Source: a virus
Length of the DNA stretch: 64,000 nt
Virus record (IMG/VR): IMGVR_UViG_3300017963_000024
Span: 22,833 to 86,832 of that record
Direction: 5' to 3' (one strand)
Shown: positions 1-64,000 of the stretch, piece after piece
Position numbering within the stretch: the stretch's first letter is position 1
Layout of the letters: each line of letters begins with the position of its first letter
Position numbers and translations under genes: made by a program
Notes under the pieces: model-generated
Databases searched by the model: none
Told to the model about the DNA's origin: nothing
Seen by the model: only the letters and a program-made list of their open reading frames with translations

Positions 1-333
1 GAATTCCGACCAGACAAAGTTCATGCGGTATTCGTAGTTGAGGGTACTCCAGATATTCCTATCATCTCTTGCTATGAGCACATCAATGGAATCGCCCTTG
101 CATCTAAGAAACTCCGTTGGTGCATTGAGAACTTCAAGGCAGAGGATGGAGAGCGTCTTGAAACGGGGATCATTTCTCCACAGGGAGAACGAACTCTTCT
201 CAATGAGAGGCTGGAAGTAATCGAGAAGCTTCCGCCTCACGTCATGTTTACATTGGAAGACGGGTGGGAGTTGGAAGTTCAAAAGCTTGCTGAGTCATTC
301 AGTAAATTTCTGGCAAAAGGAGGAGCGAAATGA
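1..333 (+). CDS. 5'-truncated hypothetical protein
   Basis: Frame 1 is open from base 1 (EFRPDKVHAVF...) to TGA at 331-333, overlapping the next ATG. Confidence 0.6.
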   Translation, partial: EFRPDKVHAVFVVEGTPDIPIISCYEHINGIALASKKLRWCIENFKAEDGERLETGIISPQGERTLLNERLEVIEKLPPHVMFTLEDGWELEVQKLAESFSKFLAKGGAK

Positions 334-563
334 GCAAGAGAATAAAGGCAACGTTCAGGAAAAGCTTCCAAGTTGGGCAGGGACCGTGGCAAACAGTCGA
401 ACTTGGAATCGAAGAGGACATCAAGAGCGAGAAGAACGCAATCGAAGAGGTACGGAAGCTTCACCGGGAACTGGTCATTCTAGGGGAAGAGATCGTAGCC
501 CAAGAGATTCGGAAGAGCCGTCCCGCGCCCGGAACGAAAAATCGTCAGTCAAAACTTTTTTAG
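330..563 (+). CDS. hypothetical phage protein
   Basis: Strong RBS AAGGAGGAGCGAA-ATG, ATGA overlap with the upstream gene. Confidence 0.7.
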   Translation: MSKRIKATFRKSFQVGQGPWQTVELGIEEDIKSEKNAIEEVRKLHRELVILGEEIVAQEIRKSRPAPGTKNRQSKLF

Positions 564-571
564 TTGGACAC

Positions 572-600
572 TTCACAGGGGCTTGACGACTTGATATAGT
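572..600 (+). promoter_or_regulatory. sigma70-like promoter of the recombination operon
   Basis: TTCACA-17 bp-TATAGT; shares GACTTGATA and an upstream GTCAAA-T-tract with the promoter at 9062. Confidence 0.5.
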
Positions 601-661
601 GTCGTGTGAGTGGGCAAGCACCGTTGGGATTCCTATTCCCTAAACTGAAAGGAGGAGCAGA

Positions 662-6284: not shown

Positions 6285-8154
6285 GTTTCTGGAATTGGAA
6301 AACTTCATGTGCTTCCAATCCCCCGTGAAGATACCGCTACGGGATCAGGGTTTGGTTGTCATCAAAGGTGACAACCAAGTCAGCAACGTTTCCGATGCGA
6401 ACGGAGTTGGAAAGACGGTGGTGGCCGCTGATGGTTTGGCATGGGTTCTATACGGACAAACCCTTCGGGGCCTCAAGGCAGATGCCGTCATCAATCGCTT
6501 CTCTGGAAAGAAGACGTGCAAAGGCAAGCTAACGTTCGAGAGTGATGGTGAGTTGTGGAGGATCGTCCGTGAGCGCCCGCATCGAATCTATGTCGTCAAT
6601 GGAAGCAATGAGGAATGGACGGGACCGGAAGCTGAAGAGGTCATCCAGCGAAAGATTGGCATTGGCTTCAAAACTTTCTGCAATGCCGTTGTGTTCGGTC
6701 AGGGTGCATTCGAGCGATTTGCCAAGGCCGATCAAGCAACGAAGCTTCGGATGTTCGATGAGATTCAAGGGGTGGACTTCAGAAAGATGAGGGAAGCCGC
6801 TGTTGCTCTCCGTTCCAAGATCGAGGCAGAGCAATCTATCGTTGAATCAAAGCTCCAATCGCTGCGAAGCACTGGAGTAGACCTTGCCGACGAGAAGGAA
6901 CAACTCGAAAGGGAACGAGACGACTTCAAAGCGGCGCAGAAAAAACGGCTGGCAGCGCGTCGTAAGGCGGAGGAAGAAGCGTTGGACGAATACCTCCGGG
7001 CCAAGGAAGCTTTCGAGGAGTTCAAGGCAGAACAGGCTAAATTACCGGAATTACAGCGGAAAAAGGCAAAGCTTGAGAAGGCTGCTGAGATTCTGGACGA
7101 GATGAGAGACGAACTAAACTCCGCAGAGTCCGAGAAGCGGGTTATCGACACGATCATTGCCAACGAGTTGAAAAGCTTGGAAAAGCTTGTGGCAGAAGGA
7201 GTTTGTCCTACCTGCCGCCGGGAGGTGCTCGATAGGGGTGATGTGAATGTCGTGACGGAGGCTTTCGAGCGTGAGGTCGCACCCTCCATTGAAGCTCAGA
7301 AGGAAGCTGAGAAGACTATCACTAGGTGTGTAAAAGCTTTGAACAAGGCTCAAGCGAGGTACGACAAGGCTGTTGCCGACAGTGGGGGTGTGACTTCAAT
7401 CGAGATCGCCCGCTTAGAGGCAAAGTACGATGACGATGCCGAGGACATCCGACGAAAACGTCTGAAGACCCTCAAGGCCGCTGCGGAGAAAGCACGCGAC
7501 GAGTACCAAAATACTGTAACAACTGATACTTGGGGCGGTGAGCAAGCTTTAGCTAGGATAGTAGAGAAGCAACTGAAGGTTGGCAAGGAACTCAAGAAGC
7601 GAGTGAAGGAAAACGATAAGCTTCAACTCAAGTACGACATGGCGGACTATTGGGTGGTTGCGTTTGGTGATCGTGGGATTCGCTCCCGATTCCTCATGTC
7701 TCAGGCCGACTTTCTCAATGCTCGACTGTTGCAGCATCTCGAAACGTTAGCGGGTAGCGAAGCCGAAGTGCTCCTCTCACCAGAGAGGACAACAGGAAAG
7801 GGGGCAACCAAGCAGCAATTCAACATTCAGACGAAGTGGAATTGGGGCGGAGAAACCTACGAATCAGAAAGTGGAGGTCAAGAACGTCGGGTAGACCTTG
7901 CAATCTTTCTGGCTCTTCAAGACTTGGCAGAGAAAACCTCCGCGTCCCCGTTTCCTCTCCGAATGTGGGACCAGCCAGAAGAGGGCTTGGATGCGACGGG
8001 GTTGGAGATGTTCGGTAGGTGGATGAAGGTCGAAGCTCGTCGCAGAGGAACAGGTTTTCTAATCACACACAATCCAATTTTGGCGGAGGCAGTACAGGCG
8101 GATCAGGAATGGACAGTGCAGCTAACAGAAGATGGAAGTCGCTTAGTGCTCTAA
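6271..8154 (+). CDS. Rad50/SbcC (gp46-like) ABC ATPase
   Basis: LENFMCF, NGVGKT Walker A, VVFGQG Q-loop, coiled coils with CPTC zinc hook, SGGQ signature, LITH H-loop. Confidence 0.92.
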   Translation: MLAFEFLELENFMCFQSPVKIPLRDQGLVVIKGDNQVSNVSDANGVGKTVVAADGLAWVLYGQTLRGLKADAVINRFSGKKTCKGKLTFESDGELWRIVRERPHRIYVVNGSNEEWTGPEAEEVIQRKIGIGFKTFCNAVVFGQGAFERFAKADQATKLRMFDEIQGVDFRKMREAAVALRSKIEAEQSIVESKLQSLRSTGVDLADEKEQLERERDDFKAAQKKRLAARRKAEEEALDEYLRAKEAFEEFKAEQAKLPELQRKKAKLEKAAEILDEMRDELNSAESEKRVIDTIIANELKSLEKLVAEGVCPTCRREVLDRGDVNVVTEAFEREVAPSIEAQKEAEKTITRCVKALNKAQARYDKAVADSGGVTSIEIARLEAKYDDDAEDIRRKRLKTLKAAAEKARDEYQNTVTTDTWGGEQALARIVEKQLKVGKELKKRVKENDKLQLKYDMADYWVVAFGDRGIRSRFLMSQADFLNARLLQHLETLAGSEAEVLLSPERTTGKGATKQQFNIQTKWNWGGETYESESGGQERRVDLAIFLALQDLAEKTSASPFPLRMWDQPEEGLDATGLEMFGRWMKVEARRRGTGFLITHNPILAEAVQADQEWTVQLTEDGSRLVL

Positions 8155-8621
8155 CAACAGACAGTACCATCGTCCAGCGAATGTCGAAAAAGATCAAGAA
8201 GGGACCCGGATGCTGGGAGTGGACTGGCTCAAAAACTTTGTGTGGCTACGGGCAAATTCGCTTTGAGGGAAGATTGGAATTGGCCCATCGTGTCATGTGG
8301 ATATTGGTAAAGCTAAAGCGTATTCCAAAAAAGCTTTGTGTGATGCATTCTTGTGACAATCCCGGTTGTGTTCGTCCTACACACCTAAAGCTTGGAACAC
8401 ACGCTGAGAACTCGCTAGATATGAAAGAGAAAGGAAGAAGTGCTGTAATTAGAGGAGGTGACAGCCCGCGAGCAAAGCTTTCTTGGGATGATGCGTATGA
8501 GATTAGGCGACTGTGCTATAATGGATTGGCAAATCAGAAGCAGCTTGCAGAGCGATACGGTGTTACACAGCCAACTATTTCTTACATTGTAAACAAGAAG
8601 CATTACGTGAGACAGACATAG
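8019..8621 (+). CDS. HNH homing endonuclease with C-terminal HTH (real start probably ATG 8181)
   Basis: CWEWTG...GYG...AHR...HSCDNPGCVRPTHL..GTHAEN; C-terminal LAERYGVTQPTIS HTH. Confidence 0.9.
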   Translation: MDEGRSSSQRNRFSNHTQSNFGGGSTGGSGMDSAANRRWKSLSALTTDSTIVQRMSKKIKKGPGCWEWTGSKTLCGYGQIRFEGRLELAHRVMWILVKLKRIPKKLCVMHSCDNPGCVRPTHLKLGTHAENSLDMKEKGRSAVIRGGDSPRAKLSWDDAYEIRRLCYNGLANQKQLAERYGVTQPTISYIVNKKHYVRQT

Positions 8622-8645
8622 AGTGGCTAAAGAAAGGAATGTACG

Positions 8646-9035
8646 ATGACAATGTTTGCTTTCGTAAGAGGAAGTCACAGGGCACATGAGATTGCGGAGG
8701 ACAAAGTTCACACCCGATGTGGACTCATCTTTGATGAGGTGCAGGATATTACCCCTTGTGCGGCGACCAAGTTTTGTAAGGAGTGCCCACGAGAGGATGC
8801 CGCTTTTCCACCCGAAGCTGATATTCCAGAAGAGGTCGAGGTGAAGGAGTCCTCCCGTCAAAACGAGATCGAACAGAAGCTCGCTGCTCTAGATTCTCTC
8901 TTCCCTAACAATCCGTACTTCTGGAACGCGGCTCTGATGCTGGCCTTTGCAGAACCTCACCGATACGATTTTCGTTGTGATACAGCCATTGCCTTCATCA
9001 ACGAGGCCCGGAGGATGCGAAAACTCAAAGGGTGA
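8646..9035 (+). CDS. hypothetical protein (His/Cys Zn-binding N-terminus)
   Basis: RBS AAAGGA; H..TRCG..CKEC pattern. Confidence 0.55.
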   Translation: MTMFAFVRGSHRAHEIAEDKVHTRCGLIFDEVQDITPCAATKFCKECPREDAAFPPEADIPEEVEVKESSRQNEIEQKLAALDSLFPNNPYFWNAALMLAFAEPHRYDFRCDTAIAFINEARRMRKLKG

Positions 9036-9061
9036 GAGGTCAAAGTTTTTTCTTTCAGCCC

Positions 9062-9090
9062 TAGACAGCCAAAGCTTGACTTGATAGAGT
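9062..9090 (+). promoter_or_regulatory. sigma70-like promoter with AAGCTT in spacer
   Basis: TAGACA-17 bp-TAGAGT. Confidence 0.5.
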
Positions 9091-9694
9091 GAGCACAATG
9101 GAACACAGGTCACGGAGAGCCAAGGGAAGGCGGCTGCAAGTGAAGGTTGCCGAAGCTCTAGCTCGTGAATACAGCTTGACGATTGAGGCTGCTCCGCCCA
9201 GCAAACCGGGGATCAGGAAGGGAGTCCGATACGTTCCAGAGGGTTCCAATCCTGATCTCCGGGTCCGCGTCGGGGGTCAGCCGGGTGAGGATGTTGCTTT
9301 GGTATCGAAGAAGGCTCAAGAGGCGTGTGCAATTGGTGGAGACAAGCTCTACATCGAGTGCAAAAATGCGGAGGCTTGGGACTTCGGAGCAAACTTTTGG
9401 AACAAAGGAGGAAGACTAGAGTTCATCATCAGAGCGTTGGAGCAATCAGAGAGAGGCTTGGAGAAAAGGAGGGGGTCTTGGATTCCTGTCGCTTTCTTCT
9501 CGAAGAACCACTGGCCGATCCTTGTGGCTTTCACAGCACGGGGAGGCGAGATCATTCGGATGAGGGAAGAGACTCCGATCTTGGTTGCATCGGGATTCAT
9601 CGTTGTAACCCTCCCCGCCTTTCTCAAAACTCTGGATGGGAGGAGTCTCAATGAAGACCAAAAAGAAAAAGGCATCCAGTGCCTCACCGACTAA
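9089..9694 (+). CDS. PD-(D/E)XK Holliday junction resolvase-like nuclease
   Basis: AKGRRLQ..VA..L, GEDV, YIECKN motifs. Confidence 0.75.
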   Translation: MSTMEHRSRRAKGRRLQVKVAEALAREYSLTIEAAPPSKPGIRKGVRYVPEGSNPDLRVRVGGQPGEDVALVSKKAQEACAIGGDKLYIECKNAEAWDFGANFWNKGGRLEFIIRALEQSERGLEKRRGSWIPVAFFSKNHWPILVAFTARGGEIIRMREETPILVASGFIVVTLPAFLKTLDGRSLNEDQKEKGIQCLTD

Positions 9695-9932
9695 GAGGCA
9701 ACCCCCGAAGAAGAGAGAAGTAGCGAAGGGATCAAGTCAGCCCAAGGGCAACTACTACGCACAGATCACTGATGAGAAGACAGGAGTTGAGCGGAAGGCC
9801 CAGTTCCAGTACGTCGAGGATCGAGATGTGTGGTTCCTTGCTTGGGGCATCAGAGACGCGCTGGAGACGAAGGACAAAAAGTACCTCCGTGAATGTATCA
9901 CGCTCCTCAAGAAGATTCCGGTGCTGCACTGA
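9651..9932 (+). CDS. Lys-rich hypothetical protein
   Basis: GGAGGAG RBS before ATG 9651. Confidence 0.55.
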   Translation: MKTKKKKASSASPTKRQPPKKREVAKGSSQPKGNYYAQITDEKTGVERKAQFQYVEDRDVWFLAWGIRDALETKDKKYLRECITLLKKIPVLH

Positions 9933-10088
9933 TGGAAACTTTGAGAGAATTGGTGAGGCTAATCGTGCGGGAGTCGGCTTGGTGGCTTGTCGTCCTCTTC
10001 TGTGCCTACCAGCTTGGTTACATGACTGCCGTGAATCGAATGAGGGGAGCGGTCTTGGAAGAGCAGATGGTGGATAGCGAGGTCTACA

Positions 10089-10643
10089 GTGGCAGTGTTC
10101 AAAAGGAAAAACCGGGCAAGTCTCTCTGCGAACCAAAGCGTTCAAGACCGATTTCTAGCCAAGGTCAGCAAAGAATCTAGGGAAGATGGTTGCTGGATTT
10201 GGACAGCGTCAATCCGAACGGATGGCTACGGTCAGTTTGGTTGGAAGGGGCGGATCATCGGTGCTCACAAGTTTTCGTATATGCTCTTCGTTGGTGACGT
10301 TCCCGATCCACTTGTGGTGTGCCACAGATGCGACAATCAACTCTGCGTGAACCCGGACCACCTGTTTCTCGATACTCAGTCAGAAAACGTTTGGGATATG
10401 CGGAGAAAAAATAGGAACTTCAGGGCGACGGGTAACATGAACGGCATGAGACGACGACCAGACCGCGTGGCGAAAGGAGAAAAGCATGGACAGGCCAAGC
10501 TGACAAGAGAGACTGTGAAGGCGATCAAGCGTTTTGCAAAGCTTGGGTGGAAGCCGAAGGAGATAGCGGATCACTTCGGAGTCGGCCCCTCAACTATTCG
10601 TGATGTCCTCACGGGTAAGACATGGAAAGGAGACACAGCATGA
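10089..10643 (+). CDS. HNH homing endonuclease with C-terminal HTH
   Basis: CWIWT...GYG...AHK...CHRCDNQLCVNPDHL..DTQSEN; IADHFGVGPSTI HTH. Confidence 0.9.
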   Translation: MAVFKRKNRASLSANQSVQDRFLAKVSKESREDGCWIWTASIRTDGYGQFGWKGRIIGAHKFSYMLFVGDVPDPLVVCHRCDNQLCVNPDHLFLDTQSENVWDMRRKNRNFRATGNMNGMRRRPDRVAKGEKHGQAKLTRETVKAIKRFAKLGWKPKEIADHFGVGPSTIRDVLTGKTWKGDTA

Positions 10644-11113
10644 AGATGAAAAAGCGAAAGAAGAAGATCGGACTGGTCAACGCACTTGGCGGTGGCTCGG
10701 ATAAGCCCAAGAAGAAAAAGAAGCAGGTCGAGGAAGCTGCCATCGAAGAGAAGCCCAAGAAGAAAAAGAAGCTGAAGAAGACGAAGAAGACGAAGAAGGG
10801 CAAGAAGGACCTCGCTGAACTGAAAGATAAGGTCAAGGCCGAACGTAAGAAGCCGAAGGGCCGCACCATTGAGTTTCTCGATCTGAAGGTGGAGTACGAT
10901 GTCGAGATTCCAGCCAAGGGCCGCCCGTCCTTGAAACGGATTCCGTTCGACAAGCTGAACAAGAAGAACGCTTCTTTCTTCATTCCGTTCGAGGAGATGG
11001 CTCCTTCACAGGTCAACTCTGCCGTGGGTCAGGAAAATCTCCGTGCCGAAGGGAAGCGCAAGTACATCTACCGTTCGGTCGAAGGTGGCTCACGAGTCTT
11101 CCGAATCGACTAG
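10640..11113 (+). CDS. Lys-rich putative DNA-binding protein
   Basis: RBS AAAGGAG; poly-K N-terminus and small globular C-terminal domain (IPFDKL...SFFIP...RVFRID). Confidence 0.6.
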   Translation: MKMKKRKKKIGLVNALGGGSDKPKKKKKQVEEAAIEEKPKKKKKLKKTKKTKKGKKDLAELKDKVKAERKKPKGRTIEFLDLKVEYDVEIPAKGRPSLKRIPFDKLNKKNASFFIPFEEMAPSQVNSAVGQENLRAEGKRKYIYRSVEGGSRVFRID

Positions 11114-11114
11114 A

Positions 11115-11339
11115 ATGGCTGGTGTTTTTTCGAGAGACTACGGCTCGCACGTTGCAAAGTTTGAGGACGTGCGGGCCACAGGGCAGACGATGGGGGGTGC
11201 TCTGATTTGTGAGATCAACGGCAAGTCGGAGTTCATCCCCCAAGGCTGTATTGACGACACCAGCGAGGTTTGGGAACCGGGGCACGAGGGGACGCTTGTG
11301 ATTTGGGAGAAGATCGCAATCGAAAAAGGTCTGGTGTAG
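11115..11339 (+). CDS. small hypothetical phage protein
   Basis: ATG right after the upstream stop; FIPQGCID...IAIEKGLV. Confidence 0.55.
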   Translation: MAGVFSRDYGSHVAKFEDVRATGQTMGGALICEINGKSEFIPQGCIDDTSEVWEPGHEGTLVIWEKIAIEKGLV

Positions 11340-11893
11340 AATGTGTTCCCATGAAGCTTGCGACGAAGAGGTGGTTGCTGGCGGCTCTTGACGACATTCA
11401 AAAGCTTTCAGATGAGTTTGCGAATGACCCACGGGGAGTCGCTGATGCGTTATGGGAAGTGGGCTTTGAGGTGGAACAGGAACTAGCTTCAATGGATGGG
11501 CTACTGCCCAACGAAAGGAGTGATAATGAAGACAAGGCGAGTAACGGTGACGATGGAGATCGAGACTGACATCCCTCTGAGTGATCTTCGCAAGAAGGCG
11601 AACTGGCATACTGATGTGTGCCGAAGAGGAGAGCGAGTAGCTGAACCTGTGGATGTGAAGCAAGTCACGGTTCAGGTCGCCGCCAACTGACAAGCTTCGG
11701 TGTACCTGCGGGCTAGGCCAGCACATTGTTTAACCGTGAATAGAATACAGGCACTCATCCTCGTTGTCAGCGCAAAGAGCACGAGTAGCCTTTTTTCTTT
11801 TCCCTTAGACGATGTCGTGCGAAGTGTCCGCAGGAAACGGGCCGGGTTGCTGGTCCCCGGCCCACCCTTTGCAGATTCACGAGAAGGGGCGGT

Positions 11894-12208
11894 ATGGAGG
11901 ATAGAGCTTTCAACAATGTCTGGTTACTGCCTGAACTCTGGAGAGCGTTAATCTCAGGTGTATGCTTTGCTGAGAACCAATCCAGCAATAGGCGGTATGA
12001 TTACTCCGGTCTACTCCAAGCTTTGCTTCTCCTCGATCAGATGCGGGAGGACGACGACATCATCGAGATTCGCCTACTCAAGCCAGATGAGATCGGACTG
12101 AATGGGGAGGACTTGGGGTTGAACACGGAAGCTGTGACCGAGGTGCTGAGAGAAAAGCGGGTCATCAACGTAAGACAACTTAGGCAGTTGCGGAGGAGGG
12201 CTGGATGA
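11894..12208 (+). CDS. hypothetical protein
   Basis: ORF with upstream purine-rich RBS. Confidence 0.5.
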   Translation: MEDRAFNNVWLLPELWRALISGVCFAENQSSNRRYDYSGLLQALLLLDQMREDDDIIEIRLLKPDEIGLNGEDLGLNTEAVTEVLREKRVINVRQLRQLRRRAG

Positions 12209-12310
12209 GGACGTTCAACGTTTACGTTACATCACCCAATGGGGCAGGGCGGTTTTTCTCCGTTCCTGCCCCGTTCACTTTGAAGGGCAGAGCTAGAAAG
12301 GGGGAGCGAA

Positions 12311-12490
12311 ATGAGAGTCAATCTAGGAACCATCGACATCAGCGACAAAGCACGAAAGGCGATCACACGGCACCTGACCGATGGTAGGCGGGGCAGCTTG
12401 GCTGGCCGTGCCGAAGTCAAGGAAATCTTCCAGAAGGCGGGGAAGAAAGCCATCAAGAAGATGGTGAAGGAGTGGAGTGGGAGCGACTGA
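12311..12490 (+). CDS. small basic protein (59 aa, below ORF-track cutoff), paralog of 14221..14472
   Basis: GGGGGAGCGAA-ATG; MRVNLGTIDISDKARKAITRHL...LAGRAEVKEIF. Confidence 0.55.
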   Translation: MRVNLGTIDISDKARKAITRHLTDGRRGSLAGRAEVKEIFQKAGKKAIKKMVKEWSGSD

Positions 12491-15171: not shown

Positions 15172-15218
15172 CACGCTTGAATGAAGTATCAATACTCGCT
15201 CGTGTGAGCACTGCGGTT

Positions 15219-15409: not shown

Positions 15410-15438
15410 TTGACAAAGCTTTGATAATGTGAGACAAT
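15410..15438 (+). promoter_or_regulatory. early sigma70 promoter P1
   Basis: TTGACA-AAGCTT...17 bp-GACAAT with extended TG. Confidence 0.75.
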
Positions 15439-15774: not shown

Positions 15775-15775
15775 G

Positions 15776-16790: not shown

Positions 16791-16819
16791 TTGACAAAGC
16801 TTTGGGCATTTGGTACAAT
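16791..16819 (+). promoter_or_regulatory. early sigma70 promoter P2
   Basis: TTGACA-AAGCTT...17 bp-TACAAT. Confidence 0.85.
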
Positions 16820-17508: not shown

Positions 17509-17537
17509 TTGACAAAGCTTTCCTCCCTTGCTATAAT
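17509..17537 (+). promoter_or_regulatory. early sigma70 promoter P3 (perfect consensus)
   Basis: TTGACA-17 bp-TATAAT with TG; AAGCTT in spacer; embedded in an inverted repeat 17493-17534. Confidence 0.9.
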
Positions 17538-18635: not shown

Positions 18636-18664
18636 TTGACAAAGCTTCAAAGCTTTGCTATACT
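18636..18664 (+). promoter_or_regulatory. early sigma70 promoter P4
   Basis: TTGACA-AAGCTTCAAAGCTTTGC-TATACT (two AAGCTT in spacer). Confidence 0.88.
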
Positions 18665-19526: not shown

Positions 19527-19555
19527 TTGACACTCCTTCAAAGCTTTGCTATACT
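19527..19555 (+). promoter_or_regulatory. early sigma70 promoter P5
   Basis: TTGACA-17 bp (contains AAAGCTTT)-TATACT. Confidence 0.85.
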
Positions 19556-20217: not shown

Positions 20218-20245
20218 TTGACAAAGCTTTTAGATTTGCTATAAT
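20218..20245 (+). promoter_or_regulatory. early sigma70 promoter P6
   Basis: TTGACA-AAGCTT...16 bp-TATAAT. Confidence 0.85.
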
Positions 20246-21090: not shown

Positions 21091-21433
21091 GTCCTCGTCG
21101 CTCTGTGGACGAGCGGTGCATTTGACTTGCTAGCGGCGCGCCTTACGCTTCGTGGAGGTCGTTCAGTCAAAGCTTTCCTGAAAACGCGCGGTGCAGCTTT
21201 TAACGGCAGACTCGACGCTTTTGGACCCCCCCCGAACAGAAGTTCGTACCCCCTGACCGACCCCCTGACCGGGGGTGTCAAAGCTTTGACGGTGCCGTGA
21301 AGTGTCACATGGTCAAAGTTTGTCACTTTCCAAAAGTCAAAGCTTTTCGACCACTTAGGGGGGAAGGTTCAAGGAAATTCGACCTTTGTGTCAAAGCTTT
21401 GACGGTAGTGCGAACAAACGTTCACGATAGGAC

Positions 21434-21494
21434 GTCAAGGACCGTGCCAAAAGCTTTGAACCTTCAAAGCTTTGACGTTGGCACGGTCCTAGCT
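21434..21494. promoter_or_regulatory. divergent pair of sigma54-like -24/-12 boxes forming an inverted repeat
   Basis: TGGCACGGTCCTAGCT (+, 21479) and TGGCACGGTCCTTGAC (-, 21449), flanking two AAAGCTTT. Confidence 0.55.
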
Positions 21495-21778
21495 ACCATT
21501 CCGAACCATGATCGGTTCACGTTCCCCCCCTTCGGTTCCCCTTCGGTCAAGCCTTCCCCTTGGAAGGTGAGGAACCAAAGGGGATTCGGCACCTTCCAAG
21601 GTGAGCAGTCAGGGATTGCAGAATAATCGTGGCTCCTGATTGGCCGAACGAAGGTTCGGTCACGTCACTCCAGTTCTGATGATCGAAACCTTGGAAGGGG
21701 TGACAGGGAAGGGGAACCCTTCCTACCGAATAAGAACCCAAAAGCTTTGAACCTACAACGATCAAGGGAAGGTGAGAA

Positions 21779-22831
21779 ATGGCTACTGACAAAACTGAGT
21801 TTGTTACTCCTGAAGGGTTTGTTTTCTACGTTCCTACCTCTGATGCCGATGTAATCATGCAACAGAGGAAGGAAGGCCGTCGAACCCTTCTCGAAATTCT
21901 AGAAGGAAGGGGATATGAGCCTTCCGAAGTGACCGAACCTTCCGAACCCTTGGAAGTGGTCAAAGGCTCCGAGCCTGAACTTCCGATTGAACTTACAGAC
22001 GTGGTCAACGAACCGAAGGTTCAAACGAAGCCACTTCGGAGAACAATCGTTGACCGTTCCCGTGAGTCAAAGCTTGAAGAACTGACAAGCCTTCTGACTC
22101 AACAGAACGAAGCTTTGAAAGCTCAGTTGCTTGAACTGAGGAAAGAAGCCAACGGGAACGAACCTGAAGCCAACGAAGCCACTTCGGAAACGGTCAACGG
22201 TCCTGTCACTCCTGAAATGGTCGAAGCCTTTTTCGTTTCCATTCTGGCAACAATCGGAAGGGATGTTAAAGCCTTCGTTTCCACGTTCGTTCGGTTCACC
22301 TTCAAGCTTGTTTCCTTCACCTTCAAGCTTGCCACTTCCCCCCTTTGGGTTCCTATCAAGTGGCTTGTCCGGTTCGGATTGTACCTGAACGGAGTTTCCC
22401 CTTCGGGAACGGTCAAGCCTTCAGGAACCGTCAAGGCTTCGGTTCCTTCCGAACCTTCCGAACCTTCGGGAACGAAGGGAACGAAGGGAACGAAGGGAAC
22501 GAAGGGAACGAAGGCAAAGTCAAAGCTTATCCCTGAAGCCACTTCCTACAAGGCTTTGACCGAACGAATCCGAACGAACTTTGGTTACGGTGCCGACCGT
22601 TGGCTTTGTGGCTGGATTGCAAACGAAGGTGAGGAACCGGGAGACGTTCCCGAACTTTCCAAAAGCCCTAGGATTGCAGACACGTTGGCTTTCCTTCATG
22701 CAATCAAGGAACGTGTTTTCAACGGGAACGAAGCTTTGACCGTCAAGTGGTACAACGAACACGTTCGGCAAGACAACGAATGGAAGGTTCGGAAGGGGAA
22801 GGCTTCAGCTAACGTCTACATTTCAGAGTGA
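21779..22831 (+). CDS. hypothetical protein with coiled coil, hydrophobic segment and EPS/GTK repeats
   Basis: 350-aa ORF, RBS GGGAAGGTGAG; 9-bp repeat GGAACGAAG x5 at 22469-22513. Confidence 0.75.
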   Translation: MATDKTEFVTPEGFVFYVPTSDADVIMQQRKEGRRTLLEILEGRGYEPSEVTEPSEPLEVVKGSEPELPIELTDVVNEPKVQTKPLRRTIVDRSRESKLEELTSLLTQQNEALKAQLLELRKEANGNEPEANEATSETVNGPVTPEMVEAFFVSILATIGRDVKAFVSTFVRFTFKLVSFTFKLATSPLWVPIKWLVRFGLYLNGVSPSGTVKPSGTVKASVPSEPSEPSGTKGTKGTKGTKGTKAKSKLIPEATSYKALTERIRTNFGYGADRWLCGWIANEGEEPGDVPELSKSPRIADTLAFLHAIKERVFNGNEALTVKWYNEHVRQDNEWKVRKGKASANVYISE

Positions 22832-22889
22832 AGCCAACGAAGGGGGGAACGTTCCTCAGTTCCCCCCTTTCCTGAAGGGAAGGTGAGGA

Positions 22890-23060
22890 ATGAACATCAG
22901 GAAGGCAAGGGGAAAGCTTTACAGGCTTGCAAGGGTACTCGGTGACGTTCAGGCAATGCTAGACGGTCCCGAAGCCTACGTGAAGAGGCTTGCAAGGAAA
23001 CAAGCCTTGAAGGCTTCGGGAAAGTCGATCAACCATGCAATCAGAAGGAAGGGAAGGTGA
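22890..23060 (+). CDS. small basic protein (56 aa, below ORF-track cutoff)
   Basis: RBS GGGAAGGTGAGGA-ATG; MNIRKARGKLYRLARVLGDVQAMLDGPEAYVKRLARK. Confidence 0.75.
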   Translation: MNIRKARGKLYRLARVLGDVQAMLDGPEAYVKRLARKQALKASGKSINHAIRRKGR

Positions 23061-23064
23061 GGAA

Positions 23065-23364
23065 ATGGAAATGAACTTCAGAAGGAACTACAACGATCAA
23101 AGCTTGATAGTTCCCCTTTGTGGACTGTGCAACGAACGGACAACAATCAACGAATTAACCGTGGCTACAGTGCAAAGGGAAGGTGAGGAACCGAAGGTGA
23201 AGGCCGTGTGCTTCGATTGCTTAGGAGCCTACTCCGACTCTGAAGTGTCGAAGATCACTCGGACGTCAATCGTGAAGGTTCGACCTTTTCCCGTTCGGGA
23301 AACTGAAGGGGGGGAACTGAAGGAACGTTCCTTCGGTAGAGTTCACCGATTCAACGTGTACTGA
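23065..23364 (+). CDS. small Zn-finger protein
   Basis: Same RBS; CGLC...CFDC. Confidence 0.7.
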   Translation: MEMNFRRNYNDQSLIVPLCGLCNERTTINELTVATVQREGEEPKVKAVCFDCLGAYSDSEVSKITRTSIVKVRPFPVRETEGGELKERSFGRVHRFNVY

Positions 23365-23380
23365 CAAAGCTTGAACAACG

Positions 23381-23420
23381 AAGGGGGGGAAGGGGGGAAC
23401 GTTCCCCTTCCCCCCTTTTT
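23381..23420 (+). terminator. intrinsic terminator
   Basis: G-rich/C-rich hairpin around GAACGTTC followed by a T tract. Confidence 0.8.
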
Positions 23421-23465
23421 CTGGCTTCGTTCCTTCAATCAAACGTCATTCTAAAAGCTTTGATA

Positions 23466-23651
23466 TGCAACGAACGTGCCACTTCCGAACCGTCAAAGCT
23501 TTGACACGTTCGGGAACCGTTGGCACAAAGCTTGCAAGCCAACAGACGTTTGGCCTAGTCAAACGATTCCCCTTCAAGGAACGTGCCAAGTGGCTTCCCC
23601 TTGCCAAGTAAAGCTTTGACAAAAAGTGGCACCGTAGCAACGAACGTGCCA
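23466..23651. promoter_or_regulatory. cluster of sigma54 -24/-12 consensus boxes on both strands
   Basis: TGGCAC-N5-TTGCW perfect at 23466-23481 (-), 23521-23536 (+), 23636-23651 (-); near match 23573-23588 (-). Confidence 0.65.
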
Positions 23652-60489: not shown

Positions 60490-60498
60490 GGGTGAACC

Positions 60499-63459
60499 AT
60501 GCCAACTTCCTACCCCGGTGCTCTCGATTCCTTCACTGTCAAGTTGAATGATCCCGGCGGTGACGTAGTCTACGCAGAGCACGTCAATGATCTTCAAGAT
60601 GCCATTTCTGCTCTCGAAGCAAAGCTTGGAGTGAACGGAAGTGGCGACACTACCTCGATTGATTACCTTCTGAAAAACCCGGTGTCTCAGGACCCCGGCC
60701 ATCGTCATTCTGTCGCGAGTTTGGACAGCTTTGAAGCCTCGAATCTCGCATACTCGGGGTTGACCTCCGGTCACGCGCTAATGGCAGATTCTCCTACGTC
60801 TGCCGATTTTCGAGCAATCCAAGAAACAGACATTGCCCCCGGTGGCTCGATCTTTGCGAAGGTCGCCAGCAATCATGTCATCACAGGCTACTGGAACTTG
60901 ACGAATCTTGCCGAGTTCACACTCAAGAATGCGGGTGATCCCTATGTTGACCTCGAATACACTCATTTTGGATTTGGCAGTGATGTCATTCTGTATTGGT
61001 GGGCAGGGGCGACAATTGGTGCAGGAGTTCCCGATGTTGGGCTGAGAAGGTCGAACACGGCAACATTGCGTGTGACGTATGCCGACGATGCACCGGGACC
61101 AAATGACATTGCCGATCTCGAACTTGGAAAGCTTTACTTCTACGAGTATGGCGGAAATTACTACAATTCGTTCATTACTTCAGCCAGTGCATCTAGCAGC
61201 TACAATTACACCCTTCCCGTTGGGGGTCCTGTTGCTGACTATTACTTGAAGACTGATGCGCTTGGAAATCTTTCGTGGGCACCCGCTTCAGGCGGAGGTG
61301 TTTCCCCCGGAGGTGCAAACACTCAGGTTCAGTTTAATGACAGTGGAGTTTTTGGTGGAGACTCTGATCTGACGTGGAACAAGACTACCAATGTTCTGAC
61401 TTTGGCGGGAGACGGTACGGTTGATTCACCAAATGTCATCACGGGTGATCTTCAGGTCTACACAGGCGCACAGCAAGTTTTGAGAACTTGGCCGGTTGGC
61501 GGAAGAACAGAGCTAGCTCCTTGGCCGGATACCGAGCAAACCGCATTTACTTGGGGTGGCCTGAAAGTCACGTACAGCTTCAACCCAACAGGCGCTTCTC
61601 TAGTTTACGGTCGAGGTATTTGGTCTTGGACGTACATCGACAATGCTTGTGCTCAAAGCTTTACTAACCCTCTCGATGCAGTCTTTGCCGATATGTGGCA
61701 TCGAGGCACAGGCGCAGCACAGCAATTGAATGCTGTCCGTGCAAGAGCGGACGTTGAATCTGGTGCCACGGTCGTAAATCTCTCGGCCATCAGAGCGGAA
61801 GTGAACATCAACTCAACAACGGTCACAACAGCTTCCGCCATTCGTATTCCAGCTTTTACAGGAGCACAAGCCGCTTCGGCACCTTGGGCTATTCTCCAAG
61901 AAGGACCGGAGTGCAGTGTCTTCGCCGGATGTGCTCGCTTTGGTTCTCTCACAGCCCCGGAACGTCATGTCCATGTGGACGAAGCTTTGAGAATTCAGCC
62001 ACAAGCTTCTCCTCCCGCATCTGCGGCTCTCGGGGACTTCTACGTGGATTCGGACGATAGTAAAGCTTACTTCTACAATGGCTCGACGTGGCAAGCTTTC
62101 ACTGGAGCGGCTGGAGGCCCTGTTCCTTTCAACGATTTAACAGACGCTACAAACACAAACACCCTCAACAATGGAACATACAGCCAATACTGGAATTGGG
62201 GGACACTTGCTGCGCTTGCTTATGGCCTTAGCCTCGCGGCAGGTGGAGGAGCGGACTCCAGCGTTCTAGGCATCACAACAACTTCTTCGGGTATTCGTGG
62301 AATCACGATTGACTGTGCTTCAGGCGGAGGCGACCCTAATACTGGCCTTTGGGTCAACATGGGAACCTCGACCGTTGCTGGGTACGGAATCGAACTCGAA
62401 AGCGGAAACAGTGCTGGGTCAGTTGCCTTCAGGCGTGTAACAATCAATTCTCTAGGCTCTAACCTCCGTCTGGTTGTGAACAACACGGCTGGAAGCGCGG
62501 TTGGAACTCAAACTCAGCACATTCGGTATTACTCCGAAGACACAAGCCACACAGAAACAGAAATGTGCCGTCTCAGTACCGTACATGATGGAGATTGGGA
62601 CAACGCGAAGTTTGAGATTGCTACCCGAAGACTAGGCGGCACAACTGTACTTGCCACGTTCGGAAACGACATTGAGTTCACCCGCCCGCTCACAAAGCTT
62701 CATGGCTTGATTGCTGGGTCGAATTGGGGGACTCCGAGTGCAAACGACGGCAACAACAACATCTCGTTACTGGACACCAGCGAAACAAAGATTCGGATTG
62801 GCGAGCAACAAGTAGGGGCTGCAACCCCATATCAAGTCACACTCTCTTCCGATTCCTACCTTGGTTGGCAAAACAGTCTTGATTGTGATGCGGGCCTTAC
62901 AGCGGTTGGTTTCGAGTACGTTTCTGGTGGAGTCCTCCGCCTGACTGACGGGCAATCCGGTGCGGATTATACCGCAAAGCTTCAATTGCGTGAGATCGAG
63001 TTCTACGATCCAACCGGGCCGACGACGGTTATCCATAAAGCGATTCCCACGGCTGGTGGCTCTGCAACTTACCAGTGGCCTACATCGGCCCCCGCTGGAA
63101 CATTCCTCCGTAACATTGCCGGGGGTGTTCTCCAATGGTCATTGGCGAGCCAGAAGAAAGTCACTGTTGTCACTACAACTTCCTATCTGGCACAGGACAC
63201 GGACGAATTCATTATTGCCGACACTGCTAGTGTGGGCGCGGCGATCACGATCAATCTCCCGACTGCTTCTGGCAGGTCGGGAAAGATGTACTACATCAAG
63301 AATCGAACAACTGGATCGGCTCCTTACTACAACTGCATCATTGACGCCTACTTGACCGAACAGATTGACGGCGCATTAACGACAACAGCAGCCGCAACGT
63401 GGGGCTTCAAGACTATCATTTGCGACGGAACGCGCTGGCTGATTCTCTCGACGAGTTAA
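60499..63459 (+). CDS. tail fiber / receptor-binding-like protein
   Basis: YPGALD...HVNDLQDA..ALE.KLG N-terminus; PGG.NTQVQFN..G.FGG; T.NLP.A...GK.Y.IK C-terminal module. Confidence 0.75.
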   Translation: MPTSYPGALDSFTVKLNDPGGDVVYAEHVNDLQDAISALEAKLGVNGSGDTTSIDYLLKNPVSQDPGHRHSVASLDSFEASNLAYSGLTSGHALMADSPTSADFRAIQETDIAPGGSIFAKVASNHVITGYWNLTNLAEFTLKNAGDPYVDLEYTHFGFGSDVILYWWAGATIGAGVPDVGLRRSNTATLRVTYADDAPGPNDIADLELGKLYFYEYGGNYYNSFITSASASSSYNYTLPVGGPVADYYLKTDALGNLSWAPASGGGVSPGGANTQVQFNDSGVFGGDSDLTWNKTTNVLTLAGDGTVDSPNVITGDLQVYTGAQQVLRTWPVGGRTELAPWPDTEQTAFTWGGLKVTYSFNPTGASLVYGRGIWSWTYIDNACAQSFTNPLDAVFADMWHRGTGAAQQLNAVRARADVESGATVVNLSAIRAEVNINSTTVTTASAIRIPAFTGAQAASAPWAILQEGPECSVFAGCARFGSLTAPERHVHVDEALRIQPQASPPASAALGDFYVDSDDSKAYFYNGSTWQAFTGAAGGPVPFNDLTDATNTNTLNNGTYSQYWNWGTLAALAYGLSLAAGGGADSSVLGITTTSSGIRGITIDCASGGGDPNTGLWVNMGTSTVAGYGIELESGNSAGSVAFRRVTINSLGSNLRLVVNNTAGSAVGTQTQHIRYYSEDTSHTETEMCRLSTVHDGDWDNAKFEIATRRLGGTTVLATFGNDIEFTRPLTKLHGLIAGSNWGTPSANDGNNNISLLDTSETKIRIGEQQVGAATPYQVTLSSDSYLGWQNSLDCDAGLTAVGFEYVSGGVLRLTDGQSGADYTAKLQLREIEFYDPTGPTTVIHKAIPTAGGSATYQWPTSAPAGTFLRNIAGGVLQWSLASQKKVTVVTTTSYLAQDTDEFIIADTASVGAAITINLPTASGRSGKMYYIKNRTTGSAPYYNCIIDAYLTEQIDGALTTTAAATWGFKTIICDGTRWLILSTS

Positions 63460-63472
63460 TCGGAGAAAGCTT

Positions 63473-64000
63473 ATGACGTATGATGACTCTTATCTCTTCG
63501 TGGCGCTCGGGTATGACCCAACCCGGATGCTGAAGAAAGTTGTGGGCGTCAATTGGGATGTTGGCACAAGCTTTGAAGACATTTGGGCTGGAGGTGCCAA
63601 TCTCAATTGGCCTCAAGCGGCTCAAAAATTAGAAATCATCTCAAGTGATGCTGCCGACGACTATGGTTCTGGTGACAATGCGTGGGTTGTTCGCCTTTGC
63701 GGACTGAACGAGAATTGGGAACTCATCAAAGACATCGACGTTCAGCTTCAGGGACTATCAGCGAGCGCACAAACAACAGAGCAGTTTATTCGTGTGCTCG
63801 ATGCAAGGGTGATTCAAGTTGGCTCTTACGGAGCCTCGAACAAAGGAACTCTGACAATTCGTGGAGCGGACGGCTCTACCCTCTTTGGAAAAATCGGAGT
63901 GTCACCTGATGGGGAAGGTACAGGACAACTCCTTTCGTCCGCCTTTACAATCCCCGCCAATTGGACTGGTTTTTTTCTCGGGGGGACGGTCTACGTCGCA
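63473..64000 (+). CDS. 3'-truncated hypothetical phage protein
   Basis: ATG after GGAG RBS; reads G.N.DV....DIW...SSDAAD...GL..NW and runs off the window end. Confidence 0.6.
   Translation, partial: MTYDDSYLFVALGYDPTRMLKKVVGVNWDVGTSFEDIWAGGANLNWPQAAQKLEIISSDAADDYGSGDNAWVVRLCGLNENWELIKDIDVQLQGLSASAQTTEQFIRVLDARVIQVGSYGASNKGTLTIRGADGSTLFGKIGVSPDGEGTGQLLSSAFTIPANWTGFFLGGTVYVA

What the first reader, a model, noticed from the sequence alone, without database searches (positions are those of the whole stretch)
1..64000. AAGCTT is a highly iterated palindrome across the whole genome window
Seen: a manual tally gives about 160 AAGCTT sites, often as AAAGCTTT, against about 16 expected at random (64000/4096). 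They occur in coding regions in several frames (KL, KA-L/F, -SF) and in intergenic DNA, and are densest at 21.1-23.6 kb. Phages normally purge 6-bp palindromes, so this resembles the cyanobacterial HIP1 phenomenon with a different motif. Inference: a selected mark such as a methylation/modification target for self-recognition, a nucleoid- or packaging-protein site, a recombination hotspot, or a decoy titrating a host HindIII-like system.
Basis: seen in the sequence. Interest (0 to 1): 0.85.

Follow-up and report, generated by a model that had tools for sequence, protein, structure and literature searches.

The report
Iterated AAGCTT in a palindrome-purged phage
An uncultured 87-kb marine-sediment phage that has erased almost every other six-letter palindrome from its DNA has written one of them, AAGCTT, into its genes and promoters about once every 400 bases at unusually even spacing, so something still unidentified must read this word along the whole phage chromosome.

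Summary
There are 162 AAGCTT sites in the window against 19.4±4.5 expected, and 212 in the 86,832-bp genome; it is the commonest hexamer. The excess survives amino-acid-, codon- and dinucleotide-preserving shuffles (82–129 expected, z 13–29). It also survives a shuffle forbidden to create purged words (78±4.5), so it is not a by-product. AAGCTT is written at 172 of 402 (43%) positions where synonymous codons allow it, uniformly across genes and more evenly spaced than chance (P≈0.007). Meanwhile 40 of 64 hexamer palindromes are absent, as are CCWGG and several asymmetric and interrupted words, which is extreme restriction-site avoidance. Flanks are symmetric (tCAAAGCTTTGa). The best matches sit in the spacers of eight consensus promoters and in arrays around an island at 21.2–23.7 kb. 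The sister virus has a weaker excess (16%), and its promoters read AACGTT at the same spot. No DNA methyltransferase was found, neighbouring words are not depleted, and surviving forbidden sites are not shielded. My best reading (0.4) is a symmetric, probably dimeric DNA-binding reader with sites selected for density. Rivals are a modification mark and a repair drive. This scan has noted iterated palindromes, including AAGCTT, in other phages; my literature searches found no published viral case.

The parts
1..64000 (.). Genome-wide iterated palindrome AAGCTT: 162 sites in the window and 212 in the genome, one per ~405 bp. Symmetric extended consensus t-C-A-AAGCTT-T-G-a.
   Evidence: counts; nulls; synonymous choice; 172 of 402 encodable positions used; flanks; even spacing.
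15410..15438 (+). Sigma-70-type early promoter TTGACA-17-GACAAT with AAGCTT directly after the -35 box (TTGACAAAGCTTTG).
16791..16819 (+). Early promoter TTGACA-17-TACAAT with TTGACAAAGCTTTG.
17509..17537 (+). Early promoter with 12 of 12 consensus matches; AAGCTT directly after the -35 box.
18636..18664 (+). Early promoter whose 17-nt spacer is built from two AAGCTT copies (TTGACAAAGCTTCAAAGCTTTGC-TATACT).
19527..19555 (+). Early promoter with CAAAGCTTTG in the downstream half of the spacer; it supplies the TG of the extended -10.
20218..20245 (+). Early promoter with 12 of 12 consensus matches; AAGCTT directly after the -35 box.
21170..23616 (.). AAGCTT-dense island (20 sites in 2.45 kb) with its own word usage and a ribosome-binding motif GGGAAGGTGAGG. 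It holds a 350-aa ORF (21779-22831) of no known family and two small ORFs. No homologue in the sister virus.
21275..21293 (.). Operator-like perfect palindrome GTGTCAAAGCTTTGACGGT, copy 1.
   Evidence: families D4, I2, I22.
21388..21406 (.). Identical second copy of GTGTCAAAGCTTTGACGGT.
21461..21479 (.). Third copy (79% identical) with core TCAAAGCTTTGAC, next to another AAAGCTTTGA at 21449-21458.
23489..23507 (.). Inverted, 100% complementary copy (ACCGTCAAAGCTTTGACAC) on the far side of the island.
   Evidence: I2, I3.
23608..23622 (.). Further TAAAGCTTTGACA copy at the right edge of the island.
   Evidence: I15.

Best explanation
AAGCTT is the core of a longer symmetric word, tCAAAGCTTTGa. 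I propose it is read on double-stranded DNA by a symmetric, most likely dimeric, sequence-specific DNA-binding factor, probably encoded by the phage. Weak, additive selection on the number and coverage of sites has rewritten synonymous codons all along the chromosome.

The best matches serve as operators. They sit inside the spacers of the early sigma-70-type promoters, where a bound dimer would block RNA polymerase. They also form palindromic arrays bracketing the island at 21.2-23.7 kb. The many bare hexamers would act as low-affinity loading or marking sites for a chromosome-wide job such as coating, compaction, replication or recombination loading, or protection.

Shown: the DNA-level excess, its independence from codon usage and from the purge, its symmetry, its even spacing, its placement in promoters and arrays, and its restriction to this lineage.

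For: 1. The excess is positive pressure at the DNA level. 77 of 145 Lys-Leu pairs are AAG-CTT (22.4 expected). Ala between NAA and TNN is GCT in 71 of 98 cases. Lys before GCT-T is AAA 34 times and AAG 5 times, although AAG is twice as common overall.
2. 172 of 402 (43%) encodable positions are used, against 4-15% for tolerated palindromes and 0% for purged ones. No gene differs significantly.
3. It is not a by-product of the purge. A constrained synonymous shuffle gives 78.1±4.5 (largest 87) against 212, and the tolerated palindromes fit that null.
4. The flanks are symmetric and graded. In coding sites: -1 A in 102 of 173, +6 T in 85 of 173, -2 C in 67, +7 G in 63. In non-coding sites they are stronger: 33, 25, 21 and 24 of 39.
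5. One-mismatch neighbours are not depleted and are mildly raised (AAGTTT/AAACTT 1.52×, AAGCTG/CAGCTT 1.37×). Graded affinity would do this.
6. The spacing is more even than a random choice among encodable positions: CV 0.907 against 1.051 (P=0.006), and largest gap 1,710 against 2,570 bp (P=0.008).
7. All 6 of the best promoters in window 8000-27900 carry AAGCTT in the spacer. So do 8 of the 12 plus-strand promoter-like sites in the genome.
8. Perfect 14-19-bp palindromes GTGTCAAAGCTTTGACGGT flank the island in direct and inverted copies.
9. In the sister virus the same promoter position reads TTGACAAACGTTTG (3 promoters). The arms are the same, the centre is CG instead of GC, and both versions are palindromes. 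That looks like an operator whose centre switched.
Against: - No reader has been identified.
- The promoter word and the genome-wide word are not strictly coupled. The sister virus has AACGTT in its promoters, yet AAGCTT is its most significantly enriched palindrome (69 against 37.1±4.9, z 6.5; AACGTT 50 against 38.0, z 2.6).
- The promoters within each virus look like copies of one cassette, so '8 promoters' is not eight independent events. A genome-wide AAGCTT-making pressure could simply have converted a pre-existing AAANNTTT spacer.
- About 170 sites inside genes could obstruct transcription if they were bound tightly.
- Site positions are not demonstrably conserved between the two viruses: 4 shared among 41 jointly encodable aligned positions, odds ratio 2.3, p=0.41.
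- The 17-mer promoter-operator module occurs in no other IMG/VR virus beyond chance: 14 single hits, 13 of them in AT-rich contigs. The system therefore has no independent replicate.
Confidence: 0.4

Rival explanations
1. Epigenetic or chemical mark. AAGCTT is the target of a DNA-modifying enzyme: a host orphan HindIII-type methyltransferase, or an unrecognised phage enzyme. The modified sites serve the phage, for example in strand discrimination for repair, in timing early promoters through their methylation state, or as a self-mark.
For: The site is a strict six-letter palindrome of the type II recognition kind, and it is tolerated where about 50 other such words are banned. HIP words in cyanobacteria go with cognate methyltransferases (Elhai 2015, PMC4390886; abstract and passages read). 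AAGCTT sits in promoter spacers, where methylation could modulate transcription. The phage encodes a ParB-DUF4417 protein whose ParB domain is 50-60% identical to that of ParB-N6_N4-methylase fusions. This fusion class is reported as phage-enriched (bioRxiv 10.1101/2025.10.10.680097, passages read).
Against: No DNA methyltransferase was found. Pfam scans of 50 proteins found none, and six-frame searches for PF01555, PF00145, PF02384 and PF02086 gave 0 hits at E≤1. None of the 44 surviving forbidden sites overlaps AAGCTT (1.2 expected), and their distances to the nearest site are random, so there is no shielding signature. DUF4417 homologues occur in 507 phage records, mostly mycobacteriophages, so the domain has no specific tie to this word. 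The graded symmetric flank preference is less typical of strict type II recognition. A mark explains tolerance of the site, but not why more sites would be better.
Confidence: 0.25
2. Neutral drive. A context-specific repair or gene-conversion bias, like the methylation-dependent mismatch-repair ratchet proposed for HIP1, keeps converting near-matches into AAGCTT. The word itself has no function.
For: The saturation is uniform over all genes, whether early, replication or structural. Positional conservation with the sister virus cannot be shown. The same pressure, only weaker, is present in the sister. Elhai's model gives a precedent (PMC4390886).
Against: One-mismatch neighbours are not depleted. 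The deamination products AAGTTT/AAACTT stand at 1.52× expectation, and there is no bias towards the outer positions of the kind reported for HIP1. The spacing is more even than chance, which a blind drive does not predict. The best matches are placed precisely in promoter spacers and palindromic arrays. No Vsr-like or methylase gene was seen among the 60 proteins scanned against Pfam or PHROGs.
Confidence: 0.12
3. Nuclease-control or recombination signal. AAGCTT acts like a Chi site or a nicking or loading site. It tames a host exonuclease, or it starts recombination-dependent replication by the phage's own UvsX-, SSB- and SbcCD-like machinery.
For: The phage encodes UvsX-like, SSB-like, SbcC-like and SbcD-like proteins. 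The site density (one per ~400 bp), the additive benefit per site and the even coverage are what such signals would show.
Against: From memory, every characterised Chi site is asymmetric and orientation-biased, whereas this word and its flanks are symmetric. No enzyme is linked to the word. The hypothesis does not explain the placement in promoter spacers.
Confidence: 0.08
4. By-product. With dozens of words banned, AAGCTT is simply one of the few spellings left, or it reflects codon and dinucleotide usage.
For: Two earlier cases in this scan were explained this way. A maximal-order Markov model reproduces the count (146.9 expected).
Against: Tested directly and rejected. A synonymous shuffle that never creates any of 89 forbidden hexamers gives 78.1±4.5 (largest 87) against 212 observed, while the tolerated palindromes fit that null. 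All five gene-aware shuffles give z ≥ 13. Every alternative Lys-Leu spelling is under-used. Non-coding DNA is even denser in sites: 39-41 sites in ~11% of the genome.
Confidence: 0.02
5. Decoy. Many AAGCTT sites titrate a host HindIII-like restriction system.
For: Only the fact that AAGCTT is a restriction-type word that this phage does not avoid.
Against: From established knowledge of type II systems, each extra unmodified site raises the chance of cleavage. The same genome removes about 50 other such words completely, which shows that its strategy is to have fewer sites. No supporting gene was found.
Confidence: 0.03

Closest known systems
HIP1 (GCGATCGC) and alternative highly iterated palindromes of cyanobacteria (Elhai 2015, PMC4390886, abstract and passages read; Xu, Lawrence & Durand 2018, PMC5861425, abstract read)
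   Same: A short perfect palindrome is hyper-abundant in coding DNA (all frames) and non-coding DNA, written through synonymous codons, with no known function. For HIP1, selection rather than neutral replenishment, and a role in chromosome structure, have been argued.
   Different: This is a six-letter word in a virus, not a cell, set against near-total palindrome avoidance. No cognate methyltransferase was found in the genome. One-letter variants show no outer-position bias. The best matches are promoter operators and arrays. Positional conservation is not shown.
Restriction-site (palindrome) avoidance in phages (Rusinov et al. 2018, PMC6286503, abstract read)
   Same: The background of this genome is an extreme case. 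40 of 64 hexamer palindromes are absent. CCWGG is found 4 times against 147 expected. Asymmetric and interrupted restriction-type words are also purged.
   Different: AAGCTT goes the opposite way (2.6-12× excess), and the avoidance does not produce that excess.
Phage repressors with many operators scattered over the genome: mycobacteriophage L5 gp71 'stoperators' and P1 C1 operators (recalled, not read here)
   Same: One phage-encoded DNA-binding protein acts at promoters and also has tens of further sites throughout the genome, including in or between genes.
   Different: As I recall them, those sites are 13-17 bp, asymmetric and number about 20-35. Here the word is a symmetric 6-12-mer with 212 copies and graded matches, and the phage shows no lysogeny genes among the proteins scanned.
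Genome-coating phage proteins that also switch early promoters, such as phi29 p6 (recalled, not read here)
   Same: A chromosome-wide nucleoprotein role is combined with repression of early promoters. This is the kind of job proposed here.
   Different: As I recall, p6 reads bendability rather than a defined word. No homologue was sought or found here.
Iterated palindromes noted earlier by this scan in other phages (AI notes, unchecked): AAGCTT in a 49-kb soil phage (e1-3291849), AGTACT in a jumbo phage (e1-302725), GC-rich words in marine and rumen phages
   Same: The same signature: a synonymous-codon-level excess of one palindrome, often evenly spaced and lineage-specific, with an unknown reader.
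   Different: Here the contrast with the purge is the most extreme. A sister genome shows a weaker excess plus a CG/GC switch at the promoter position.

Membership tests
HIP-type highly iterated palindrome | A short perfect palindrome many-fold over-represented against composition- and codon-aware nulls | tested here: met
   212 observed against 71-129 in five gene-aware shuffles, 78 in the purge-constrained shuffle, and 19.4 for the window in dinucleotide shuffles.
HIP-type highly iterated palindrome | Present in all reading frames and in non-coding DNA | tested here: met
   77, 71 and 23 sites in frames 0, 1 and 2, plus 39-41 non-coding.
HIP-type highly iterated palindrome | A cognate (orphan) DNA methyltransferase for the word or its core in the same genome (Elhai 2015) | tested here: not met
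   No methyltransferase in 50 proteins scanned against Pfam. PF01555, PF00145, PF02384 and PF02086 gave 0 hits in six frames. The host genome is unknown, so a host enzyme is untested.
HIP-type highly iterated palindrome | Sites conserved at orthologous positions between genomes (Xu et al. 2018) | tested here: inconclusive
   41 jointly encodable aligned positions with the sister virus, 4 shared sites, odds ratio 2.3, p=0.41.
HIP-type highly iterated palindrome | One-letter deviations biased to the outer letters (Elhai 2015) | tested here: not met
   Neighbour ratios range from 0.58 to 1.52 with no outer-position pattern.
Restriction-site avoidance (applies to the background, not to AAGCTT) | Restriction-type words depleted against synonymous-codon nulls | tested here: met
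   The other 63 palindromes total 186 against 758-1042 expected (z -26 to -28). 21 asymmetric hexamer pairs and 8 interrupted palindromes outside the TTA/TAA words have O/E ≤0.25.
Restriction-site avoidance (applies to the background, not to AAGCTT) | Purged words match the recognition sites of enzymes in the host | not testable with these tools
   The host is unknown and REBASE is not on hand. The match of purged and tolerated words to known enzymes rests on my recall only.
Target of a phage-borne HindIII-type modification system | An N6-adenine (beta-class) methyltransferase gene in the genome | tested here: not met
   PF01555 gave 0 hits at E≤1 in six frames. That M.HindIII belongs to this Pfam family is recalled.
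Chi-like recombination hotspot | An asymmetric word with orientation bias relative to DNA ends or replication | tested here: not met
   The word and its flanks are symmetric. Orientation cannot exist for a palindrome.
Operator of a dimeric phage regulator | A palindromic site placed within or overlapping core promoter elements, in several promoters | tested here: met
   8 of 12 plus-strand promoter-like sites have AAGCTT in the spacer, 6 of them directly after TTGACA. 14-19-bp perfect palindromes lie around the island.
Operator of a dimeric phage regulator | An identified cognate DNA-binding protein | not tested
The genome has HTH-bearing proteins: an HTH_36/DnaD-like initiator and two HNH-HTH proteins.

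The most novel reading that the evidence does not exclude
A phage-encoded chromosome-marking system. A dimeric reader recognises tCAAAGCTTTGa, and the phage has paved its whole genome with evenly spaced copies of the core as self-identity or loading sites, for example for coating, replication or recombination loading, or protection. The strongest copies double as early-promoter operators. This would be a viral counterpart of the unexplained cyanobacterial HIP elements, with an identifiable reader, and one instance of a wider class of iterated palindromes in phages.
Probability: 0.3. Interest if true: 0.85.

Novelty: new variant of a known kind. Interest (0 to 1): 0.72.

Why it matters
Highly iterated palindromes have been known in cyanobacteria for about 30 years without an agreed function. 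Here the same signature appears in a small genome of 106 genes that otherwise bans palindromes, so the word cannot be dismissed as tolerated noise. The list of possible readers is short. The strongest sites (promoter operators and island arrays) give direct handles for pull-down or gel-shift experiments. A sister virus with a CG/GC switch at the same promoter position offers a natural specificity control. The genome is also one of the most extreme examples of restriction-site avoidance, which makes it useful for studying how far recoding can go.

Tried and rejected
- **By-product of the purge or of codon usage:** rejected.
- **VSP- or HIP-type repair signature:** neighbouring words are not depleted.
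- **Shielding of forbidden sites by AAGCTT:** 0 of 44 overlap, with 1.2 expected.
- **Phage methyltransferase:** none found.
  - The Atlas's nearest structural cluster is automatically named 'Queuine tRNA-ribosyltransferase'.
  - 507 annotated phage records hold homologues. None of the 40 listed rows is labelled TGT; the labels are nuclease, ParB-like nuclease, DNA modification methylase or hypothetical.
  - The 7-deazaguanine papers I searched do not mention the family (passages only; supplements closed).
  - A profile search of PDB sequences gave nothing below E=0.3. I dropped the lead.
- **Close relatives sharing the trait:** of 59 related loci of 8 kb or more found through the capsid, none has a comparable excess. 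The sister virus reaches 16-17% saturation against 43% here.
- **Other viruses sharing the promoter-operator 17-mer:** 14 single hits. One contig (G001) has a modest excess (30 of 158 encodable positions, 19%) but is unrelated, and its match lies inside a gene.
- **Population variants:** the two runs holding the virus give identical contigs with 0 differences over 20 kb, so there is no information on gain or loss.
- **Host search:**
  - No tRNA genes in the window or in genome 1-20000.
  - Public names for the sister's proteins carry no organism.
  - The Dehalococcoidia and Thermogutta MAGs with related capsid genes are not enriched in AAAGCTTT (1 against 7, and 80 against 121).
  - Among 301 Chloroflexota genomes sampled, the highest CAAAGCTTTG count is 37 in 6.5 Mb. 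The top five have AAGCTT at 0.31-0.49 per kb against 2.44 per kb in the virus. No host candidate emerged and no other phylum was searched.
- **Literature:** searches (listings) returned no report of AAGCTT enrichment or of an iterated palindrome in a phage. The library omits most subscription journals.
- **Positional conservation with the sister:** underpowered.

I therefore made no folds and no fold searches, and did not use complex prediction.

Full report
**What the window is.** The window is bases 22833-86832 of a single 86,832-bp contig. IMG/VR classes it as a complete virus with terminal repeats. Its two ends repeat the same stretch of sequence, which I read as a circular assembly. It is a tailed phage with a portal, an HK97-type capsid protein, a tape-measure protein and a large terminase. 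It also has UvsX-, SSB-, SbcC- and SbcD-like recombination proteins, a DnaB-like helicase, a primase-like protein and a family A polymerase. A self-trained codon model genes, 104 of them on the plus strand. The nearest annotated phages share under 30% portal identity. Two public runs hold the DNA, labelled sediment and seawater metagenome. Their contigs are identical, so they are probably one data set. The host is unknown.

**The observation.** AAGCTT occurs 162 times in the window, against 19.4±4.5 in dinucleotide shuffles, and 212 times in the genome. It is the most frequent hexamer of all. Sites lie in frame 0 (77, all Lys-Leu), frame 1 (71), frame 2 (23) and non-coding DNA (39-41).

**Null models.** With 200 shuffles each on the whole genome, the expectations are as follows. 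A synonymous shuffle per gene gives 82.4±5.3, and genome-wide it gives 77.2±5.6. An amino-acid- and dinucleotide-preserving shuffle gives 108.0±6.4, or 129.4±6.3 when done per gene. Codon permutation gives 71.4±4.8. Each figure includes about 40 fixed non-coding sites, so the coding excess is about 4-fold.

The codon detail is blunt. 77 of 145 Lys-Leu pairs are spelt AAG-CTT (22.4 expected), and every other spelling is under-used. Ala between NAA and TNN is GCT in 71 of 98 cases. Lys before GCT-T is AAA 34 times and AAG 5 times, against 540:1059 overall. The Lys-Leu dipeptide itself is not enriched (145 against 132). Overall, AAGCTT is written at 172 of the 402 positions where synonymous codons could write it (43%). 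Tolerated palindromes stand at 4-15% and purged ones at 0%. No gene departs significantly from the mean.

**The background is an extreme purge.** Forty of the 64 palindromic hexamers are absent from the genome. The 63 palindromes other than AAGCTT total 186 copies against 758-1042 expected. Four-letter palindromes are not purged: TCGA occurs 442 times and GATC 318 times in the window, yet they almost never have symmetric flanks. As a class, the avoidance is confined to uninterrupted hexamers: O/E is 0.14 at spacer 0, 0.84-0.91 at spacers 1-2, and about 1 beyond.

Specific other words are also erased. CCWGG is found 4 times against 147 expected. GAGACC, ACTGGG, CAGCTC, ACATGC, GAGCCC and GCAGGC are purged, as are CCTNAGG, GCTNAGC, CAGNNNCTG, CACNNNNGTG, CCANNNNNTGG and GCCNNNNNGGC. 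I recall all of these as type II recognition sequences. I also recall that several of the tolerated palindromes (AAATTT, TTGCAA, TAGCTA, TAATTA) have no known enzyme. REBASE was not available, so this match rests on recall only. This part is a very strong case of the known anti-restriction strategy (Rusinov et al. 2018, PMC6286503, abstract).

**Is AAGCTT just what is left?** Two earlier cases in this scan were explained that way, so I tested it. I defined 89 forbidden hexamers (45 of them palindromes) and ran a synonymous-codon swap chain that rejects any swap creating one. AAGCTT then settles at 78.1±4.5 (largest 87) against 212 observed. AACGTT, TTGCAA, GAATTC, CAATTG, AAATTT and GCTAGC fit this null (28, 32, 30, 24, 22 and 17 expected against 34, 32, 24, 19, 16 and 14 observed). 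The by-product reading is rejected.

**Anatomy of the word.** The flanks are symmetric. In coding sites, -1 is A in 102 of 173 and +6 is T in 85 of 173; -2 is C in 67 and +7 is G in 63. In non-coding sites the same preferences are stronger (33, 25, 21 and 24 of 39, and +8 is A in 22). The consensus is tCAAAGCTTTGa. One-mismatch neighbours are not depleted, and some are raised (AAGTTT/AAACTT 1.52×, AAGCTG/CAGCTT 1.37×).

The spacing is more even than a random choice of 172 among the 402 encodable positions. The CV is 0.907 against 1.051 (P=0.006), and the largest gap is 1,710 bp against 2,570 bp (P=0.008).

**Where the best matches are.** Following a lead from earlier notes, I found that all six strongest sigma-70-type promoters in window 8000-27900 carry AAGCTT in their 16-17-nt spacer. 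All six score 10-12 of 12 consensus matches and have a TG-extended -10. In five the word follows TTGACA directly, and one spacer is made of two copies. In the whole genome, 8 of 12 plus-strand promoter-like sites do so; two of the four without it lie inside a late gene. Around the island at 21.2-23.7 kb, the perfect palindrome GTGTCAAAGCTTTGACGGT occurs twice in direct and once in inverted orientation, with weaker copies nearby. The island has its own vocabulary and ribosome-binding motif. It encodes a 350-aa protein of no known family.

**Relatives.** A capsid alignment retrieved 77 loci. Among the 59 of 8 kb or more, none shows a comparable excess. A few distant ones (L053, L054, L056) show an equally extreme purge with other tolerated words.

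The sister virus has 68% capsid identity and 61% ParB-DUF4417 identity. I recovered it as two contigs that overlap by 127 bases, 73.8 kb in all. 44 of our 106 genes have a homologue there. The block from window 11.3 to 33.4 kb, which holds the early cassettes and the island, has almost none: one short match.

The sister has a weaker purge and a weaker but real AAGCTT excess: 69 against 37.1±4.9 (z 6.5), with saturation of 66 of 401 (16%). Its flank preferences are the same (-1 A in 35 of 69, +6 T in 33 of 69). Its promoters, however, read TTGACAAACGTTTG (3 promoters), TTGACAAGCGTTTG (1) or carry AAACGCTTG (1), and none has AAGCTT. The arms of the promoter palindrome are therefore conserved and only the centre differs (CG against GC). 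This argues that a symmetric reader acts at the promoters. It also shows that the promoter word and the genome-wide word are not strictly coupled.

Positional conservation of sites is not demonstrable: 4 shared among 41 jointly encodable positions, p=0.41. Of 108 of our sites in aligned regions, only 10 have identical residues in the sister (~14 expected). Five are Lys-Leu here and Arg-Leu there.

**Tests of the rivals.**
- No DNA methyltransferase was found by Pfam scans of 50 proteins or by six-frame searches for four methylase families.
- None of the 44 surviving forbidden sites overlaps AAGCTT.
- The ParB-DUF4417 protein has a ParB domain 50-60% identical to that of ParB-methylase fusions. 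Such fusions are reported as phage-enriched (10.1101/2025.10.10.680097, passages). But DUF4417 is common in phages generally (507 records), and nothing ties it to this word. An automatic 'queuine tRNA-ribosyltransferase' label found no support.
- No other IMG/VR virus shares the promoter-operator 17-mer beyond chance.
- No genome among 301 sampled Chloroflexota, nor the two MAGs with related capsid genes, is rich in the word.

**Reading.** The data show a weak, additive, genome-wide pressure at the DNA level for a symmetric word. The pressure extends to selection for coverage, and the strongest copies sit at regulatory positions. A symmetric, probably dimeric DNA-binding reader accounts for the most features (confidence 0.4). 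A modification mark (0.25) and a repair drive (0.12) remain open. Chi-like, decoy and by-product readings are weak or rejected.

The closest known phenomenon is HIP1 (Elhai 2015; Xu et al. 2018). Two of its proposed hallmarks are not met here: a cognate methylase in the genome and an outer-letter deviation bias. This scan has noted iterated palindromes in other phages, including AAGCTT in a 49-kb soil phage (AI notes, unchecked). My literature searches found no published viral case.

Noticed in passing
whole genome (window 1-64000 and the 22.8 kb before it): One of the most extreme restriction-site purges I have seen. 40 of 64 hexamer palindromes are absent, CCWGG is found 4 times against 147 expected, and asymmetric words (GAGACC, ACTGGG, CAGCTC, ACATGC, GAGCCC, GCAGGC) and interrupted palindromes (CCTNAGG, GCTNAGC, CAGNNNCTG, CACNNNNGTG, CCANNNNNTGG) are erased. 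Four-letter palindromes are kept. From recall only, the tolerated palindromes largely coincide with words for which few or no enzymes are known.
   Followed up: yes
window 21170-23740: An island with its own DNA vocabulary. It has the ribosome-binding motif GGGAAGGTGAGG before its three ORFs, a 9-bp tandem repeat (GGGAACGAA) inside the 350-aa ORF at 22459-22517, G-rich hairpins, and AAGCTT palindromes at both borders. There is no homologue in the sister virus and no family hit.
   Followed up: partly
genome 3413-4717 (19.4-18.1 kb before the window; locus L078): A ParB-DUF4417 fusion protein. Its ParB domain is 50-60% identical to the N-termini of ParB-N6_N4 DNA methylase fusions, so DUF4417 occupies the 'methylase slot'. 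Homologues occur in 507 annotated phage records; in the D29-like mycobacteriophages listed, the match lies in the first ~1 kb and several records number the gene 1. Function unknown.
   Followed up: partly
window 11270-33400: A ~22-kb block of small ORFs (early cassettes, the island, accessory genes) has almost no counterpart in the sister virus: one short match. The flanking replication and structural modules are syntenic. AAGCTT saturation is nevertheless the same in both kinds of region.
   Followed up: partly
loci L053, L054, L056 (IMG/VR contigs of 63-94 kb, GC 0.64-0.66): Distant capsid relatives (about 33% identity) show an equally extreme hexamer-palindrome purge (O/E 0.17-0.26; 45-53 of 64 absent in 21 kb) with a different tolerated set (CGCGCG, CGTACG, TCGCGA, CGGCCG).
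   Followed up: no
sister virus (G002+G003; loci L097, L176, L177, L178, L002): TCCGGA, a palindrome absent from our genome, is over-represented in the sister (40 against 23.6±3.9, z 4.3). The two viruses therefore face different restriction pressures and may each favour more than one palindrome.
   Followed up: no
Chloroflexota genomes G149, G104, G228, G053, G194, G065 and others (5.5-7.4 Mb): A subset of large Chloroflexota genomes carries CAAAGCTTTG 20-37 times against 0-3 for the reversed control. This is about 5 per Mb, far below the phage, and is possibly just avoidance of the TTCGAA-containing control.
   Followed up: partly
window 14001-34000, runs X1 and X2: The 'sediment 2018' and 'seawater 2021' runs yield contigs of identical lengths and sequence over this stretch, so they look like one data set filed twice. 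They should not be counted as two habitats.
   Followed up: partly
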